From Myxococcota bacterium (GTDB lineage Bacteria > Myxococcota_A > UBA9160 > PR03): a DNA stretch of 44,086 bases. How positions within the stretch are numbered: position 1 is the first letter of the stretch; the number at the start of each line of letters is the position of its first letter. The stretch is from NCBI GenBank assembly GCA_041577015.1, contig JBFGJV010000001.1, positions 1 through 44,086 of the forward strand. Reading direction: 5' to 3'. This document shows positions 13,175 through 17,256 of the stretch, piece after piece. The position numbers and the translations under genes were made by a program. The notes beneath the pieces were generated by a model. The model was given only the letters and a program-made list of their open reading frames with translations, made no database searches and was not told where the DNA came from.

Positions 13175-13771
13175 GTGCGCCGTTTCGGCACGGAGACCTG
13201 GATCTTCGGCTACGGCTCGCTCACGTGGCGGCCGGACTTTCCGCACCGGGAGCGCCGGCCGGCCTGGGTGTCCGGCCGGGCGCGCCGCTTCTGGCAGGGA
13301 TCCACCGACCACCGGGGCGTGCCCGGGGCGCCCGGCCGCGTGGTGACGCTGGTGGAGGAGCCGGGTGCACGCTGCTTCGGCATGGCCTACCGCGTCGATG
13401 CGGCGGGCGCCGACGCGGTGGTGGCGGCGCTCGACCATCGCGAGCGCGGGGGGTACGAGCGCGTGGAGATCGAGCTCCGCTTCGGAGCCGCGGTGGGGCG
13501 CGTCGCGCGAGCCCTCACCTGGGTGGCGACGCCCGCGAACCCCAACTACCTGGGCGAGGCGCCGCTCGCGGCGATCGCGGACCAGGTCCGCCGGGCATAC
13601 GGGCCGAGCGGTGCGAACCTGGAATACGTGCACCGCCTGGCCGAGTTCCTGCGGGCTCACGGCGCCGACGACCCCCACGTCTTCGCCCTCGCCCGCCTGC
13701 TCCCGGCTCTTCACCCCGAACACGCGCCCCGCAGCAGCGACGCCAGCAAGATCCCCGGGGCGAGCGCGTAG
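13175..13771 (+). CDS. ChaC-family gamma-glutamylcyclotransferase
   Basis: C-terminal part of listed ORF 12113-13771, taken from in-frame GTG 13175. WIFGYGSLTWRPDF, GRVVTLVEEPG..CFGMAY and LDHRERGGYERVEI are ChaC hallmarks. Confidence 0.8.
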   Translation: MRRFGTETWIFGYGSLTWRPDFPHRERRPAWVSGRARRFWQGSTDHRGVPGAPGRVVTLVEEPGARCFGMAYRVDAAGADAVVAALDHRERGGYERVEIELRFGAAVGRVARALTWVATPANPNYLGEAPLAAIADQVRRAYGPSGANLEYVHRLAEFLRAHGADDPHVFALARLLPALHPEHAPRSSDASKIPGASA

Positions 13772-14286
13772 ACCAGGCCGATCGCCACCCAGCAGGCGAA
13801 CCAGGCGCGGTCTCGGCTCGTGGCGCCGCGTGAGGGGGTGCGCAGGCCCAGGCGGTCGCGCAGCTCCCCCACCCGCCAGGTCAGCAACTCCTCCCGGAAC
13901 TCGCCCTCGGTCCGATACAGGCTCGTGGCGTGCCGCCCGCGCACGAAGGCCCGGAAGGTGCGGCCCGGAGCGATGACGAGGCCGATCACGAAGGCCCCGA
14001 GATTCAGCCACCAGGCCCACAGGTGGCGTCCGCAGCCGGCGGCGATCTCCCAGGCACCGATCTCCGCCTCGCCGGTCCAGCTGGTGTCGTAGCTGGTCGC
14101 CACGTGGTGGAGGTCGTGAAGCTTCACGGCGCGCACGCGCCCCGGCCGGTTCGGAAAGCGGATCGGCAGCGGACCCGCCCGCAGCACCACCCAGCGCTCG
14201 CTGTAGCCGCCGATCCCAAGCCCGCTCCGCGCGAAGTAGCGCTCGCGCGCCTCGCCGACGCGGAGGGCGTCGCCGTAGGCCGACAC
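13711..14286 (-). CDS. Coq4-family-like membrane protein with an HDxxH-x11-E motif
   Basis: I trimmed to GTG 14286, which lies 11 nt after the upstream stop. VKLHDLHHVATSYDTSWTGEAEI fits the Coq4 motif HDxxH-(x)11-E. Two hydrophobic helices follow it. Confidence 0.55.
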   Translation of the reverse strand: MSAYGDALRVGEARERYFARSGLGIGGYSERWVVLRAGPLPIRFPNRPGRVRAVKLHDLHHVATSYDTSWTGEAEIGAWEIAAGCGRHLWAWWLNLGAFVIGLVIAPGRTFRAFVRGRHATSLYRTEGEFREELLTWRVGELRDRLGLRTPSRGATSRDRAWFACWVAIGLVYALAPGILLASLLRGACSG

Positions 14287-14297
14287 CGCGCCGGGGC

Positions 14298-14939
14298 CTA
14301 GCTCTCGTCCGCGTAGAGGGCGAGGGCCTCGGGGAGGGGCGCCGATTCCACGCCAGGCTCCGCCACCACCGCCCGCAGCCAGTCGGGCCGCTCTCGGGCG
14401 CAGACGCAGACCGGGTGCGGCAGGCCCGCGAGCTGGTTGGCCTGACGCACGAAGCTCGTGGCGTAGTCCGGCGGCCGCACGTCCCGGGCGAGCTCCACCA
14501 GGACGAAGGGATCCGGCGGCGAGGAGCCCGGCGCGGGCAGCGCCACGTGGGGCGTGCCGGGGCGGTCGCCGCCTCCCGCGAGGCCAGGTCCGTCGCACAG
14601 GATCGCGCCCCGGACCTGCCGCGGCCGCGCCCCGGCCAGGAGCAGCGCCACGTAGGCGCCGAGCCCGCGTCCCAGCAGCGTGGCGGCCTCCAGCTGCGTC
14701 AAGGCCGCGTCGGCGTCGCCCATCAGGATCTCGGCCGTGTAGCCGCCGCTGGCCGGCACCGAGGAGCGCCCGTGCCCGGTGAAGTCCAGGGCGAACACCG
14801 GCCCCGGCCAGGGGGACGCCGACTCCGGCACGGCGTCCGGGGAGCGCTCGCCGAGTCCGTGCAGGAGGAGCAACGGCCGCCCCGATCCCTTCCGCAGCGC
14901 GTGCAGCGCCAGCTCCACCTTGGCGTGCTGGAGCCTCAC
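14298..14939 (-). CDS. Alpha/beta-hydrolase-fold protein lacking the nucleophile serine
   Basis: GTG 14939 overlaps the upstream stop in a GTGA arrangement (14936-14939). It has LLLLHGLGERS and FTGHGRS blocks, but the elbow reads LLGRGLGAYVAL, with Gly where Ser is expected. Confidence 0.6.
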   Translation of the reverse strand: MRLQHAKVELALHALRKGSGRPLLLLHGLGERSPDAVPESASPWPGPVFALDFTGHGRSSVPASGGYTAEILMGDADAALTQLEAATLLGRGLGAYVALLLAGARPRQVRGAILCDGPGLAGGGDRPGTPHVALPAPGSSPPDPFVLVELARDVRPPDYATSFVRQANQLAGLPHPVCVCARERPDWLRAVVAEPGVESAPLPEALALYADES

Positions 14940-15874
14940 GACAGGAACTCCAGCACGAGCTTCGTCACCGGCTCGGGCTGCTCGATGTGGATGAAGTGCC
15001 CGGCGTCCTCGAAGCGCTCGACGCGCGCGCCGGGCGGAAGGTGGGGCCGCAGCACCTCCGGCGTGGTGTCCCAGCCCATGGGCTCCTGCTGGCCGCCCAG
15101 CAGCCCCAGCAGGGGAGCCGCGAGGCCGGGAAGGCGCTCCAGGTGCCACTCCGGGCGGAAGGGACCGAAACCCCCGAAGCGCAGCGCGGGGTCGATCTTC
15201 CAGCGCCAGCCGTCGGGATCGCGCCGCGCCCCGAGCGTCACCAGGTAGCGCAGCCACTCCAGCGGGAGGCGCGGGTTCATGCGCCCGCGGCGGCGCGCCA
15301 GGTCGTCCAGGGTGCCCGGCTTGCGCACCAGGTGCGCGGCCCGCCGCCGGTGGTCGAGCCAGCCCGCCAGGTCCTCGGCCAGCAGCCGCGTGCGCTCGTG
15401 GTCCGCCACGTCCGGATGCGCGCGGCGCGACGGCATGCCGTCGATGCTCACCAGGCGCCGTACCCGGTGCGGCATGGTGAGCGCCAGCTGCGTCAGCACC
15501 GCGCCCCCCTTCGAGTGCCCGATCAGGTGCACGGGCTCCCGCGTGGTGGACTCGAGCACCAGCAGCGCGTCCCGGACGTCCGCCTCCCAGGAGTAGAGCG
15601 CCGCATGCGCGGAGTCGCCGTGCCCGCGGTGATCCCAGCTCACCACGCGGTACCCCGCCGCGGCCAGCAGCGGGGCGAAGACGTCGAAGGTGCGGGCGAA
15701 GTCGAAGCCGCCGTGGGCGAGCAGGATCACCGGCGCGCCCGTCTCGCCCCACTCGTAGACGGCCAGGCGCAGCCCGAAGGAGTCGACGCTGCGCAGGCGG
15801 TCCGGCGTCCGAGCGCCGGGGTAGGAGGGCGCTCCGGGCTCGCCCTTCGCATCCGCGCTGGTCACCTCGCGCAT
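14936..15874 (-). CDS. Alpha/beta hydrolase
   Basis: I trimmed to ATG 15874 (MREVTSADAKG...). VILLAHGGFDFARTF, WDHRGHGDS, nucleophile elbow LIGHSKGGAV, and AGHFIHIEQPE near the C-terminus. Confidence 0.8.
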   Translation of the reverse strand: MREVTSADAKGEPGAPSYPGARTPDRLRSVDSFGLRLAVYEWGETGAPVILLAHGGFDFARTFDVFAPLLAAAGYRVVSWDHRGHGDSAHAALYSWEADVRDALLVLESTTREPVHLIGHSKGGAVLTQLALTMPHRVRRLVSIDGMPSRRAHPDVADHERTRLLAEDLAGWLDHRRRAAHLVRKPGTLDDLARRRGRMNPRLPLEWLRYLVTLGARRDPDGWRWKIDPALRFGGFGPFRPEWHLERLPGLAAPLLGLLGGQQEPMGWDTTPEVLRPHLPPGARVERFEDAGHFIHIEQPEPVTKLVLEFLS

Positions 15875-15985
15875 CAGGTCTCCTCGGGCGCGGGGCCAGT
15901 CTAGGCGGAAGCGGCCTTCGCGGCCGCCCCGGCGTCTGGAGGGAAGACCCGAGGGCCGAGACGGGCGGCAGGCCGATGAGGGGGC

Positions 15986-17256
15986 GTGTCCCGGCAAGCC
16001 CTCGCGCCGTCCACCTCCCGCATCTTCGTGGCCCGCCAGCCCATCCTGGACCGGCGCCAGCGCATCTCGGGCTACGAGCTGCTCTACCGCGGCTCCGCCG
16101 ACGCCACGCGGGCGGAGTTCCCCGACGTGCGCAGCGCCTGCGTCCGGACGCTGGTGAACGTCTTCGTCGACATGGGCCCGGATGCGCTGCTCGGCTCCCA
16201 CCGCGGTTTCCTCAACGTGTCGGGTGAGCTGCTGCGCAGCGATCTGGTGGAGGCACTCCCGAAGGACCGCGTGGTGATCGAGATCCTCGAGTCGGAGGCG
16301 GTGGACGTCGAGCTCGAGCGGCGCTGCCGGGAGCTGGTCCAGCTCGGCTTCGCCCTGGCGCTGGACGACTTCGTCCCGGGTGACGGGCGAGAGGCCCTGC
16401 TGCCGGTGGTGGACTACGTGAAGGTGGATCTCGCCGGGACGTCCGGCAGCGCCCTGCGTCGTCTCGTCCCGCTCCTGCGCCGTCATCCCCCGCGCGTCTC
16501 CTGGCCGAGAAGGTGGAGACGCGCGAGCAGTACCGGGCTTGCCGGGAGCTCGGCTTCGACCTGTTCCAGGGCTTCCACTTCGCCCGGCCGGTGACCGTGT
16601 CGGGCAACGCGGTCGATCCGGCGCGCGCGGCGCTGCTGGAGCTTCTGCGTCGGCTGCGTCAGGGCGCGGAGCTCGACCGCCTGGAGGAGCTTCTCAAGCA
16701 GCACGCCTCCCTGGGCCTGAACCTGCTGCGCCTGGTCAACTCGGTGGGCATGGCGCGCAGCCAGCGCATCTCCACGGTGCGCCAATCCCTCGTCCTGATC
16801 GGCAGACGTCGCCTGGAGCGCTGGCTCGTGATGCTGCTGTTCGCCGGCTCGGATCCCGCCGGGGCCGCGAGCCCGCTGCTGCAGGTGGCCGCCATGCGGG
16901 GCCGTCTGATGGAGCTCCTGGCCGGCCGCGGTGGGGAGGGCCGCGACGTGGGCGAGCGCGCCTTCCTGGCGGGAATGCTGTCGCTCGTGGATGCGGTGCT
17001 GGGTCTCTCCAAGCTCGAAGTCATGGACCAGCTGCACGTGGACGAGGGCATCCGCCTCGCCGTGCTGGAGCGGCGGGAAGCCCTGGGCCGTCTGCTCGCC
17101 CTGGCGGAGGCGGTGGAACGCGCCGACTTCGCCCGCGTGGAGGAGCCCCTGCGCGAGCTCGCTCTCGACCCCGGCGACCTGTTCCAGGCCGGTCTCGATG
17201 CGGCCGCCTGGGTGGGTCGGCTCGAGGCGGGCGCCGCCGCCCCGACCGACGCCTGA
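15986..17256 (+). pseudogene. EAL-like + HDOD domain signalling protein, split by a 1-nt frameshift near 16487-16497
   Basis: ORF 15986-16594 carries the EAL-like N-terminus (FVARQPILDRRQRISGYELLYR, VIEILESE, DYVKVDL). ORF 16513-17256 carries (LLAEK)VETREQYRACRELGFDLFQGFHFARP plus the HDOD region. The frames join if one base is added at the C5/GC run. Total length is 1271 nt, which is 3n-1. Confidence 0.75.

What the first reader, a model, noticed from the sequence alone, without database searches (positions are those of the whole stretch)
13711..15874. Bacterial Coq4-like HDxxH-x11-E protein in a coupled operon with two alpha/beta-fold proteins
Three minus-strand genes are tightly linked: a GTGA overlap at 14936-14939, then an 11-nt gap. 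The last gene encodes a ~191-aa protein with VKLHDLHHVATSYDTSWTGEAEI. This fits the zinc-binding HDxxH-(x)11-E signature of the eukaryotic ubiquinone-biosynthesis factor Coq4. Here it is followed by two hydrophobic helices.

I see no other ubiquinone biosynthesis genes in the window. The partners are instead an intact alpha/beta hydrolase and a nucleophile-less alpha/beta-fold protein. This suggests a role for the Coq4 fold outside canonical CoQ synthesis, or an undescribed bacterial quinone or lipid-head-group modifying trio. Both readings are inference.
Basis: partly seen in the sequence, partly recalled or inferred. Interest (0 to 1): 0.6.

Follow-up and report, generated by a model that had tools for sequence, protein, structure and literature searches.

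The report
Membrane-anchored distant Coq4 relative, local operon
The 191-residue protein belongs to a large, unnamed bacterial family distantly related to the ubiquinone enzyme Coq4, but its host makes menaquinone rather than ubiquinone, and its link to the two hydrolase-fold genes is a recent local arrangement.

Summary
Three minus-strand genes sit at the stated coordinates, with a GTGA overlap and then an 11-nt gap. The last gene encodes a 191-aa protein carrying HDLHH-x11-E.

The Coq4 link is real but remote:
- Pfam Coq4 is far below threshold (10.7 bits against a cut-off of 22.9).
- A profile-profile comparison with diverse canonical Coq4 proteins gives 98.3% probability (E 1.3e-14) over residues 1-152.
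- A confident AlphaFold model matches only the Coq4 homologue 6E12.

The family has about 1,260 clusters at 50% identity and no Pfam or NCBIfam model. It lacks the first ~65 residues of the Coq4 domain and adds a C-terminal membrane helix. H57, D58, H60, H61 and E73 are invariant.

The host, a Myxococcota MAG, has MenA and MenD. No UbiG, UbiD or UbiA scores above cut-off, so a ubiquinone role is unlikely.

The "trio" is not a conserved module. The two hydrolase-fold genes are adjacent in every related locus where the upstream flank was recovered (27 of 27). The Coq4-like gene follows them in only two lineages; elsewhere that slot holds an SDR, a secreted protein or other genes. Across 80 species the family has no constant neighbour.

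A Verrucomicrobiota clade independently couples the family to, and once fuses it with, a different esterase. Earlier scan notes record other short Coq4-like families outside quinone contexts. Interest is moderate.

The parts
14936..15874 (-). ABH1: a 312-aa alpha/beta hydrolase that looks catalytically intact.
   Evidence: Abhydrolase_1 scores 78.7 bits. GHSKGG is invariant in 28/28 orthologues and His293 in all 27 rows with a residue there; Glu264, a candidate acid residue, is likewise conserved (27/27). Nearest solved relatives are generic epoxide hydrolases and esterases.
14298..14939 (-). ABH2: a 213-aa alpha/beta-fold protein without a nucleophile. It is the conserved partner of ABH1.
   Evidence: Abhydrolase_6 scores 28.4 bits against a 26.3 cut-off. 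The elbow reads G-R-G-L-G, with Gly at the nucleophile position in 30/30 orthologues. It lies next to ABH1 in all 27 related loci where the upstream flank was recovered.
14936..14939 (-). GTGA stop/start overlap between ABH1 and ABH2.
   Evidence: Read directly from the sequence.
14287..14297 (-). 11-nt spacer between the ABH2 stop (TAG) and the Coq4-like start (GTG). No clear Shine-Dalgarno sequence.
   Evidence: Read directly from the sequence. No promoter-like or terminator-like site was found in 13400-16200.
13711..14286 (-). Coq4-like protein of 191 aa. It is an N-terminally short, tail-anchored member of the Coq4 superfamily.
   Evidence: hhalign against canonical Coq4 gives 98.3%, E 1.3e-14, residues 1-152 against Coq4 68-220. 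The family profile hits 3MSQ and 6E12. The AF2 model has pLDDT 94.2. Foldseek finds only 6E12, probability 0.99-1.0, TM 0.43-0.46. The family has 1,262 representatives at 50% identity.
14068..14118 (-). Metal-ligand motif HDLHH-x11-E (residues 57-73).
   Evidence: Invariant in 31 homologues. It aligns with the invariant H, D, H and E of canonical Coq4. It is the only hit in six frames, against 0.04 expected.
13969..14025 (-). Moderately hydrophobic helix (residues 88-106), part of the Coq4 core. By analogy with 6E12 it probably lines the lipid tunnel.
   Evidence: Kyte-Doolittle peak 1.5. It is helical in the model and aligns with a core helix of Coq4. The tunnel role is inferred from the description of 6E12 in Pelosi et al..
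13729..13806 (-). C-terminal transmembrane helix (residues ~161-186), a tail anchor. It has no counterpart in canonical Coq4.
   Evidence: Hydrophobic in all 31 homologues although the sequence varies. The model shows a helix over 157-190. The Coq4 alignment ends at residue 152.
13175..13771 (+). Convergent ChaC-family gene whose 3' end overlaps the Coq4-like 3' end by 61 nt. It is not part of the unit and is absent at this spot in the 72%-identical relative.
   Evidence: Gene calls with Pfam on near-identical contigs. Absent in L004. Coordinates.

Best explanation
The window carries a conserved two-gene unit: a catalytic alpha/beta hydrolase plus a nucleophile-less paralogue-like partner. In this genus-level lineage only, a third gene has come to lie 11 nt downstream.

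That third gene encodes a member of a large, unannotated bacterial family that is a divergent branch of the Coq4 superfamily. It keeps the C-terminal two-thirds of the Coq4 domain, including the HDxxH-x11-E metal site. It lacks the first ~65 residues. It has gained a C-terminal transmembrane helix that tethers a cytoplasmic catalytic domain to the inner membrane.

The host is a menaquinone organism with no ubiquinone pathway, so the protein does not make CoQ.

Inferred mechanism: the conserved His/Asp/His/Glu residues, together with family-specific H60, E80 and C85, hold one or two divalent metal ions beside a hydrophobic channel that opens toward the bilayer. The enzyme would then act on a membrane-resident lipophilic substrate. 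By analogy with COQ4 this is most likely a metal-dependent, possibly O2-dependent, decarboxylation of a lipid-tailed aromatic or other carboxylic acid.

Shown here: gene structure, homology, family conservation, membrane anchor, absence of Ubi genes, and lineage-restricted synteny.

Inferred: metal binding, topology, substrate class and reaction.
For: - Gene structure.
- Homology to Coq4:
  - 26 of 31 family members give weak Pfam Coq4 hits.
  - The family profile hits the two solved cyanobacterial Coq4 homologues.
  - It also hits the genome's own canonical Coq4 paralogue.
  - hhalign gives 90.8% against a narrow Coq4 alignment and 98.3% (E 1.3e-14) against a diverse one.
  - Foldseek finds only 6E12 with high probability.
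- Conservation: H57, D58, H60, H61, E73, W79, E80 and C85 are invariant.
- Tail anchor: present in all 31 homologues.
- Quinone pathway: MenA 188 bits and MenD 458 bits are above cut-off. UbiG, UbiD, UbiA_proteo and MqnA are not.
- Lineage-restricted linkage. The tree places the window's copy with G003 (98/96), apart from other copies in the same taxonomic family.
- COQ4 chemistry:
  - Zn-dependent decarboxylase in vitro; mutants of the motif residues were made and assayed (PMC7615680).
  - O2-dependent oxidative decarboxylation.
  - About 2 Zn per protein.
  - D164A is inactive.
  - There is a hydrophobic tunnel in 6E12 (bioRxiv 10.1101/2023.11.13.566839).
Against: - Pfam PF05019 is not reached (10.7 bits against 22.9).
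- The structural match is partial (TM 0.43-0.46).
- The N-terminal third of the Coq4 domain is missing, so the active-site pocket may differ.
- No experiment, metal analysis or model coordinates were available to check ligand geometry.
- Gene context gives no consistent clue to the substrate.
- The genome is 88% complete, so the absence of Ubi genes is not proof.
Confidence: 0.7

Rival explanations
1. The three genes form a working pathway in this lineage. ABH1, assisted by its non-catalytic partner ABH2, hydrolyses a lipophilic ester or lactone. The membrane-anchored Coq4-like enzyme then decarboxylates or otherwise modifies the released acid.
For: - The 4-nt overlap and 11-nt gap, with no terminator-like site found, fit one transcript.
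- The arrangement is kept in two genus-level lineages at 72% identity.
- A separate Verrucomicrobiota clade (100/100 support) places the family directly after an Abhydrolase_3 esterase. In one genome the two read as a single in-frame 491-aa protein.
- In 61 relatives the two occur together more often than apart: both 20, ABH2 only 14, Coq4-like only 7, neither 20.
Against: - The other 28 ABH2 loci from relatives carry no Coq4-like gene after ABH2. The slot holds an SDR, a secreted protein or other genes instead.
- Only about 5 of 80 family loci have any alpha/beta hydrolase next door. That is close to what such an abundant family would give by chance.
- The single fusion is in a MAG and could be an assembly error.
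- Related genomes are not independent, and genome size confounds the co-occurrence count.
Confidence: 0.25
2. The protein takes part in making ubiquinone or another, undescribed benzoquinone or phenolic lipid, doing the Coq4-type C1 decarboxylation in bacteria that lack UbiD/UbiX.
For: - It is homologous to COQ4 with an intact motif.
- UbiD is absent from the genome.
- COQ4 can replace UbiD and UbiH in E. coli.
Against: - No UbiG or proteobacterial UbiA above cut-off, and a classical Men pathway is present.
- No prenyltransferase or methyltransferase recurs beside the family in 80 loci.
- The family is patchy, present in 27 of 61 relatives, which does not fit a core respiratory cofactor.
- The phyla concerned are, to my knowledge, menaquinone users.
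Confidence: 0.06
3. The protein is not an enzyme. It is a metal-stabilised lipid-binding or scaffold protein at the membrane, the role first proposed for Coq4. It might, for example, recruit soluble partners such as the ABH pair.
For: - Coq4 was long regarded as a scaffold, and 6E12 binds oleic acid.
- ABH2 is a conserved pseudo-enzyme that could serve as an adaptor.
- A tail anchor suits a recruiting role.
Against: - The metal ligands are strictly invariant, along with additional polar residues (H60, E80, C85, R118, R143). This looks more like a catalytic site.
- COQ4 itself has since been shown to be catalytic.
- The family has no constant partner to scaffold.
Confidence: 0.1

Closest known systems
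Coq4/COQ4 family (Pfam PF05019): eukaryotic COQ4 and the solved cyanobacterial homologues Alr8543 (PDB 6E12) and PDB 3MSQ
   Same: - The HDxxH-x11-E motif is shared, and a following aromatic residue (W79 here against a near-invariant Phe in Coq4) is conserved in type.
- A Gly-Arg block and an E-(L/V)-R-x-x-L block are conserved near the C-terminus.
- The core is helical with a hydrophobic helix after the motif.
   Different: - It falls below the Pfam threshold.
- It lacks the first ~65 residues of the domain.
- The model shows a beta-hairpin at residues 32-45, in a stretch aligned with gaps to Coq4.
- It has an extra invariant His (HDxHH), Glu80 and Cys85.
- It carries a C-terminal transmembrane helix.
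- It occurs in an organism with no ubiquinone pathway.
Bacterial 'Coq4 family proteins' of Myxococcota, including this genome's own copy at G000:C17:13596-14144
   Same: They share the superfamily, the host phylum and the absence of a ubiquinone context. They are often multi-copy and sit next to SDRs or other tailoring-type enzymes.
   Different: Those proteins are full-length (~220 aa), have no C-terminal hydrophobic extension in the alignment and score 50-150 bits on PF05019. Pairwise similarity to the window's protein is confined to the 31-residue motif region.
Generic alpha/beta hydrolases of the Abhydrolase_1/6 type (nearest solved: 5CW2 EphA, 7AL5)
   Same: ABH1 has the fold, the GxSxG elbow and a C-terminal His. 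ABH2 has the fold.
   Different: Neither reaches any NCBIfam cut-off, so no specific function is assigned. ABH2 has Gly at the nucleophile position in all 30 orthologues and always accompanies ABH1.

Membership tests
Coq4 family (Pfam PF05019) | HDxxH-x11-E metal-ligand motif | tested here: met
   HDLHH-x11-E at residues 57-73. It is invariant in 31 homologues and aligns to the invariant H, D, H and E of canonical Coq4.
Coq4 family (Pfam PF05019) | Score at or above the Pfam gathering threshold | tested here: not met
   10.7 bits, E 0.32, against a cut-off of 22.9. Across the family, 26 of 31 members give hits, the best at E 0.0011.
Coq4 family (Pfam PF05019) | Homology to the Coq4 domain detectable by profile-profile comparison | tested here: met
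   hhalign 98.3%, E 1.3e-14, 145 columns. 90.8% against a narrower alignment.
Coq4 family (Pfam PF05019) | Full-length domain of about 220 residues, including the N-terminal helices | tested here: not met
   The alignment covers only Coq4 positions 68-220, and the protein starts there.
Coq4 family (Pfam PF05019) | Fold like the solved homologues | tested here: inconclusive
   6E12 is the only high-probability Foldseek hit (0.99-1.0), but TM is 0.43-0.46 and rmsd 6-7 A.
Coq4 family (Pfam PF05019) | Role in ubiquinone biosynthesis, or co-occurrence with Ubi/Coq genes | tested here: not met
   No UbiG, UbiD or UbiA_proteo above cut-off; MenA and MenD are present. There are no quinone genes among the neighbours in 80 loci.
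Coq4 family (Pfam PF05019) | Binds divalent metal through the motif | not testable with these tools
   Needs purified protein and metal analysis.
Alpha/beta hydrolase, catalytic (ABH1) | Fold plus a Ser nucleophile in GxSxG and a catalytic His | tested here: met
   Abhydrolase_1 78.7 bits. GHSKGG is conserved in 28/28 and His293 in 27/27.
Alpha/beta hydrolase, catalytic (ABH2) | Ser, Cys or Asp nucleophile at the elbow | tested here: not met
   G-R-G-L-G, with Gly in 30/30 orthologues. The fold itself passes Abhydrolase_6 (28.4 against 26.3).
Conserved three-gene operon ('trio') | The same three genes adjacent in related genomes | tested here: not met
   The ABH1-ABH2 pair is present in all 27 related loci where the upstream flank was recovered. 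The Coq4-like gene lies downstream in only 2 of 30 ABH2 loci, counting the window's own. Among 80 family loci the trio occurs in 1.

The most novel reading that the evidence does not exclude
This tail-anchored, short Coq4-like family is a new class of membrane-bound, metal-dependent and possibly O2-dependent decarboxylases. It would act on lipophilic carboxylic acids that partner esterases release. The local operon here and the independent esterase fusion in Verrucomicrobiota would then mark a two-step ester-to-acid-to-decarboxylated-product route. That route could serve lipid or aromatic catabolism, or the synthesis of an unknown phenolic lipid, in phyla that make no ubiquinone.
Probability: 0.12. 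Interest if true: 0.7.

Novelty: new variant of a known kind. Interest (0 to 1): 0.38.

Why it matters
COQ4 was assigned a catalytic role only in 2023-2024, and its mechanism and physiological metal are still unsettled. According to the cited paper, the human protein is hard to handle in vitro.

A compact bacterial relative could offer a simpler system for studying Coq4-type chemistry. It keeps only the metal-binding core plus a membrane anchor, and it works in organisms without ubiquinone. It would also show what else this fold does.

The family is large (about 1,260 clusters at 50% identity), has no model in Pfam or NCBIfam, and is annotated almost everywhere as hypothetical. A family definition alone would improve annotation.

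The negative result also matters. Tight spacing in one genome suggested a module that comparative data do not support.

Tried and rejected
- Chance motif: rejected. There is 1 hit against 0.04 expected, the residues are invariant, and the profile-profile E-value is 1.3e-14.
- Direct family assignment by Pfam or NCBIfam: nothing reached threshold.
- Single-sequence PDB search: only 3MSQ, at E 1.7.
- A Tetrahymena respiratory-complex membrane protein (8B6G chain CF) was the top hit of the profile PDB search, at E 0.026 over a hydrophobic stretch. I treated it as compositional and did not follow it up.
- Conserved operon partner: all-against-all clustering of neighbours, plus Pfam scans of the immediate upstream (65) and downstream (61) genes, found none. 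The counts were:
  - upstream: AsnC-like 8, TetR 6, LysR 4, Abhydrolase_3 3
  - within 3 kb: SDR 8
  - downstream: nothing above 4
- Domain fusions as functional hints: rare and mixed (Ser/Thr kinase, glutaredoxin-like, RCC1 repeats), so not informative.
- Remnant of a Coq4-like gene downstream of ABH2 in relatives: none, even with unfiltered hmmsearch.
- Recent foreign origin judged from composition: the gene's GC (0.738) and GC3 (0.932) match its neighbours, so this gives no signal.
- Promoter and terminator scans: nothing found, which is uninformative at 72% GC.
- My first two ORF callers mis-called genes in high-GC loci. Only the third, which reproduced the database gene calls on L009, was used for neighbour counts.
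Full report
**What is in the sequence**

Three co-oriented minus-strand genes occupy 15874..13711.
- ABH1 (15874..14936, 312 aa) is an alpha/beta hydrolase. Abhydrolase_1 scores 78.7 bits, and the elbow reads GHSKGG.
- Its TGA stop overlaps the GTG start of ABH2 (14939..14298, 213 aa). The overlap is the GTGA at 14936-14939.
- ABH2 passes the Abhydrolase_6 threshold only narrowly (28.4 against 26.3 bits). It reads GRGLG at the nucleophile elbow.
- Eleven nucleotides after the ABH2 TAG stop, a GTG at 14286 opens a 191-aa frame that ends at 13711.

NCBI gene calls on near-identical MAG contigs give the same three products. Homologues begin at the same alignment column, which supports this start over the longer 295-aa ORF. 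The 3' end overlaps the 3' end of a convergent ChaC-family gene by 61 nt. No promoter-like or terminator-like site was found. At 72% GC that result says little.

**Is the motif more than chance?**

HDxxH-x11-E occurs once in all six frames of the window, against 0.04 expected from shuffles. The stronger argument is conservation. In 31 homologues of 50-72% identity, these residues are invariant: H57, D58, H60, H61, W70, G72, E73, W79, E80, C85, R118 and R143.

**The family**

- A word-indexed search found 848 clusters at 90% identity. Almost all are named 'hypothetical protein', and none has a precomputed Pfam domain.
- An exhaustive profile search of 1.84 billion cluster representatives found 1,262 proteins at E <= 1e-3 and 907 at E <= 1e-10.
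- A pattern scan of 185,579 species genomes confirmed 256 carriers. Among the 80 loci kept, they are mostly MAGs of Myxococcota, Binatia, Thermoanaerobaculia and other Acidobacteriota, Verrucomicrobiota, Gemmatimonadota and Planctomycetota.
- The nearest records name the host lineage as an uncultured Myxococcota bacterium.

**Relation to Coq4**

Direct assignment fails. Pfam Coq4 gives 10.7 bits (E 0.32) against a cut-off of 22.9, matching only residues 52-82, and NCBIfam gives nothing relevant. Every more sensitive test points the same way:
- 26 of 31 family members give weak Coq4 hits, and no other family recurs.
- A family profile searched against all PDB sequences hits 3MSQ and 6E12, the two solved cyanobacterial Coq4 homologues.
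- The same profile finds the genome's own canonical Coq4-family gene at E 3.8e-4. That gene lies at G000:C17:13596-14144 and scores 82.5 bits on PF05019.
- Profile-profile comparison gives 90.8% against a narrow alignment of that paralogue's close relatives.
- Against a diverse alignment of 29 canonical Coq4 proteins from Myxococcota genomes it gives 98.3%, E 1.3e-14. This spans 145 columns, residues 1-152 against Coq4 positions 68-220.

Three blocks line up: the metal motif with a following aromatic residue, a Gly-Arg block, and an E-(L/V)-R-x-x-L block near the end of the domain.

An AlphaFold2 model built on the family alignment is confident (mean pLDDT 94.2, pTM 0.87). Foldseek against the PDB returns 6E12 chains A and B with probability 0.99-1.0, and nothing else above 0.12. 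The TM-score is only 0.43-0.46, as expected for a partial match.

I conclude that the protein is a true but divergent member of the Coq4 superfamily. It is not a member of PF05019 as currently defined.

**How it differs from Coq4**

- The protein begins where Coq4 position ~68 aligns, so the N-terminal third of the domain is absent.
- The model shows a beta-hairpin at residues 32-45, where the Coq4 alignment is gapped.
- The motif carries an extra invariant His (HDxHH). Glu80 and Cys85 are also invariant in this family.
- After the Coq4-homologous part ends at residue ~152, all 31 homologues carry a hydrophobic segment of variable sequence. Its 19-residue Kyte-Doolittle mean is 1.7-2.9, and only 1-22 residues follow it. 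This is a C-terminal membrane anchor.
- There is no N-terminal signal sequence, and the stretch before the anchor is Arg-rich in this protein. I infer that the domain faces the cytoplasm.
By analogy with the lipid tunnel described for 6E12, it probably lines a substrate channel rather than crossing the membrane.

**Not ubiquinone**

The genome is 3.2 Mb in 368 contigs and 88% complete.
- MenA (188 bits) and MenD (458 bits) are above their cut-offs.
- No UbiG, UbiD, proteobacterial UbiA or MqnA reaches cut-off.
- Canonical Coq4-family genes occur in 38 of 151 Myxococcota genomes, with up to 7 copies per genome. This also does not fit a single housekeeping step in CoQ synthesis.
- No quinone-pathway family appears among the family's neighbours in 80 loci.

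**Is the trio a module?**

No.
- I searched 61 genomes of the same order for ABH2 and recovered 30 loci with strong matches.
- In all 27 related loci where the upstream flank was recovered, ABH1 lies directly upstream in the same direction. The elbow Gly of ABH2 is conserved in 30/30 orthologues and the Ser of ABH1 in 28/28. The conserved unit is therefore a hydrolase plus a pseudo-hydrolase.
- The Coq4-like gene follows ABH2 only in the window's genome and in one 72%-identical relative, G003. This holds even with an unfiltered HMM search of the downstream 1.5 kb.
- In other relatives the same slot holds a classical SDR, a ~215-aa protein with a signal-peptide-like N-terminus, or other genes.
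- The Coq4-like family is present in 27 of the 61 genomes, but elsewhere in them. It lies 5-8 kb upstream of the pair in three genomes of the same family, and more than 100 kb away in two others.
- A maximum-likelihood tree groups the window's copy with G003 (98/96 support). It places them with sequences from other phyla rather than with the other copies from the same taxonomic family. The copy beside the ABH pair therefore has its own history.
- Looking outward from the Coq4-like gene, only 1 of 80 species-level loci has the trio.
- The commonest neighbours are regulators and common tailoring enzymes. None exceeds 8 loci, and several belong to single clades: AsnC-like 8, TetR 6, LysR 4, SDR 8 within 3 kb.

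**What remains of the hydrolase link**

A well-supported Verrucomicrobiota clade (100/100) places the family immediately after an Abhydrolase_3 esterase of the GDSAGG type.
- In three loci the two genes overlap by 4 nt or are separated by 4-8 nt.
- In one MAG they read as a single in-frame 491-aa protein.

Because the partner is a different hydrolase family, this is an independent event. Together with the 20/14/7/20 co-occurrence table, it keeps a lineage-specific esterase-then-Coq4-like pathway alive as a rival, at about 0.25. Three cautions apply. Alpha/beta hydrolases are very abundant. Related genomes are not independent. The fusion could be an assembly error.

**Mechanism proposed**

COQ4 has been shown to be a Zn-dependent decarboxylase of a prenylated 4-hydroxybenzoate analogue in vitro (PMC7615680). 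That study made and assayed double mutants of the motif residues.

In cells it is required for O2-dependent oxidative decarboxylation. It binds about two Zn per protein, and the motif Asp is essential (10.1101/2023.11.13.566839). That paper also describes a hydrophobic tunnel beside the metal site in 6E12.

By analogy, I propose that this family is a membrane-tethered metalloenzyme. It would take a lipophilic carboxylic acid from the bilayer and most likely decarboxylate it. Metal binding, topology, substrate and reaction are all inferences; none was tested here.

**Comparison with the rest of the scan**

A word search of earlier notes shows that other short or divergent Coq4-like families outside quinone contexts have been reported repeatedly on other DNA. 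These include one judged a local accident of gene order and one strictly paired with an amidohydrolase. No look-alike of this particular protein had been recorded. Those notes are unchecked leads, and I did not use them as evidence.

**Verdict**

- The Coq4 relationship and the non-CoQ context are supported.
- The trio is a local arrangement.
- The family is a new variant within a known superfamily, of moderate interest.

The tool for finding sequencing runs was closed, so co-transcription could not be examined.

Noticed in passing
window 14298-15874; L099-L127: The catalytic hydrolase (GHSKGG) and the nucleophile-less partner (GRGLG, Gly in 30/30 orthologues) form a conserved adjacent pair across an order of Myxococcota. 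The gene downstream of the pair varies: SDR, a ~215-aa protein with a signal-peptide-like N-terminus, the Coq4-like gene, or others. The pair itself looks like an uncharacterised enzyme/pseudo-enzyme unit.
   Followed up: partly
G000:C17:13596-14144 (L089:1393-2052): The same genome has a canonical Coq4-family gene (PF05019, 82.5 bits) that starts 5 nt after an SDR gene. Canonical Coq4 genes occur in 38 of 151 Myxococcota genomes, with up to 7 copies per genome, although ubiquinone genes were not found in this one.
   Followed up: partly
L029:5095-6570: In a Verrucomicrobiota MAG, an Abhydrolase_3 esterase (GDSAGG) and the Coq4-like domain read as one in-frame 491-aa protein. In three related loci they are separate genes that overlap by 4 nt or lie 4-8 nt apart. 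This could be a real fusion or an assembly error.
   Followed up: partly
window 15986-17256: The EAL and HDOD halves are called as two genes (202 and 221 aa) on two near-identical MAG contigs, but as one 422-aa EAL-HDOD gene on a third (L003).
   Followed up: partly
window 13711-13771: The Coq4-like gene and the convergent ChaC-family gene overlap by 61 nt at their 3' ends. ChaC is absent at this position in the 72%-identical relative (L004).
   Followed up: no
P0001 residues 83-140: In the profile search of the PDB, the top hit was a 'transmembrane protein, putative' of the Tetrahymena respiratory supercomplex (8B6G chain CF, E 0.026). The match covers the hydrophobic helix and the Gly-Arg block. 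I could not tell whether it is compositional or a distant Coq4-like subunit.
   Followed up: no
L110, L111, L118 (downstream of ABH2): A conserved ~215-aa open frame with a signal-peptide-like N-terminus and a Y/W-S-G-T-Y-(D/Q)-V motif fills the slot after ABH2 in genera g2 and g6. I did not run it against Pfam or any other family library.
   Followed up: no
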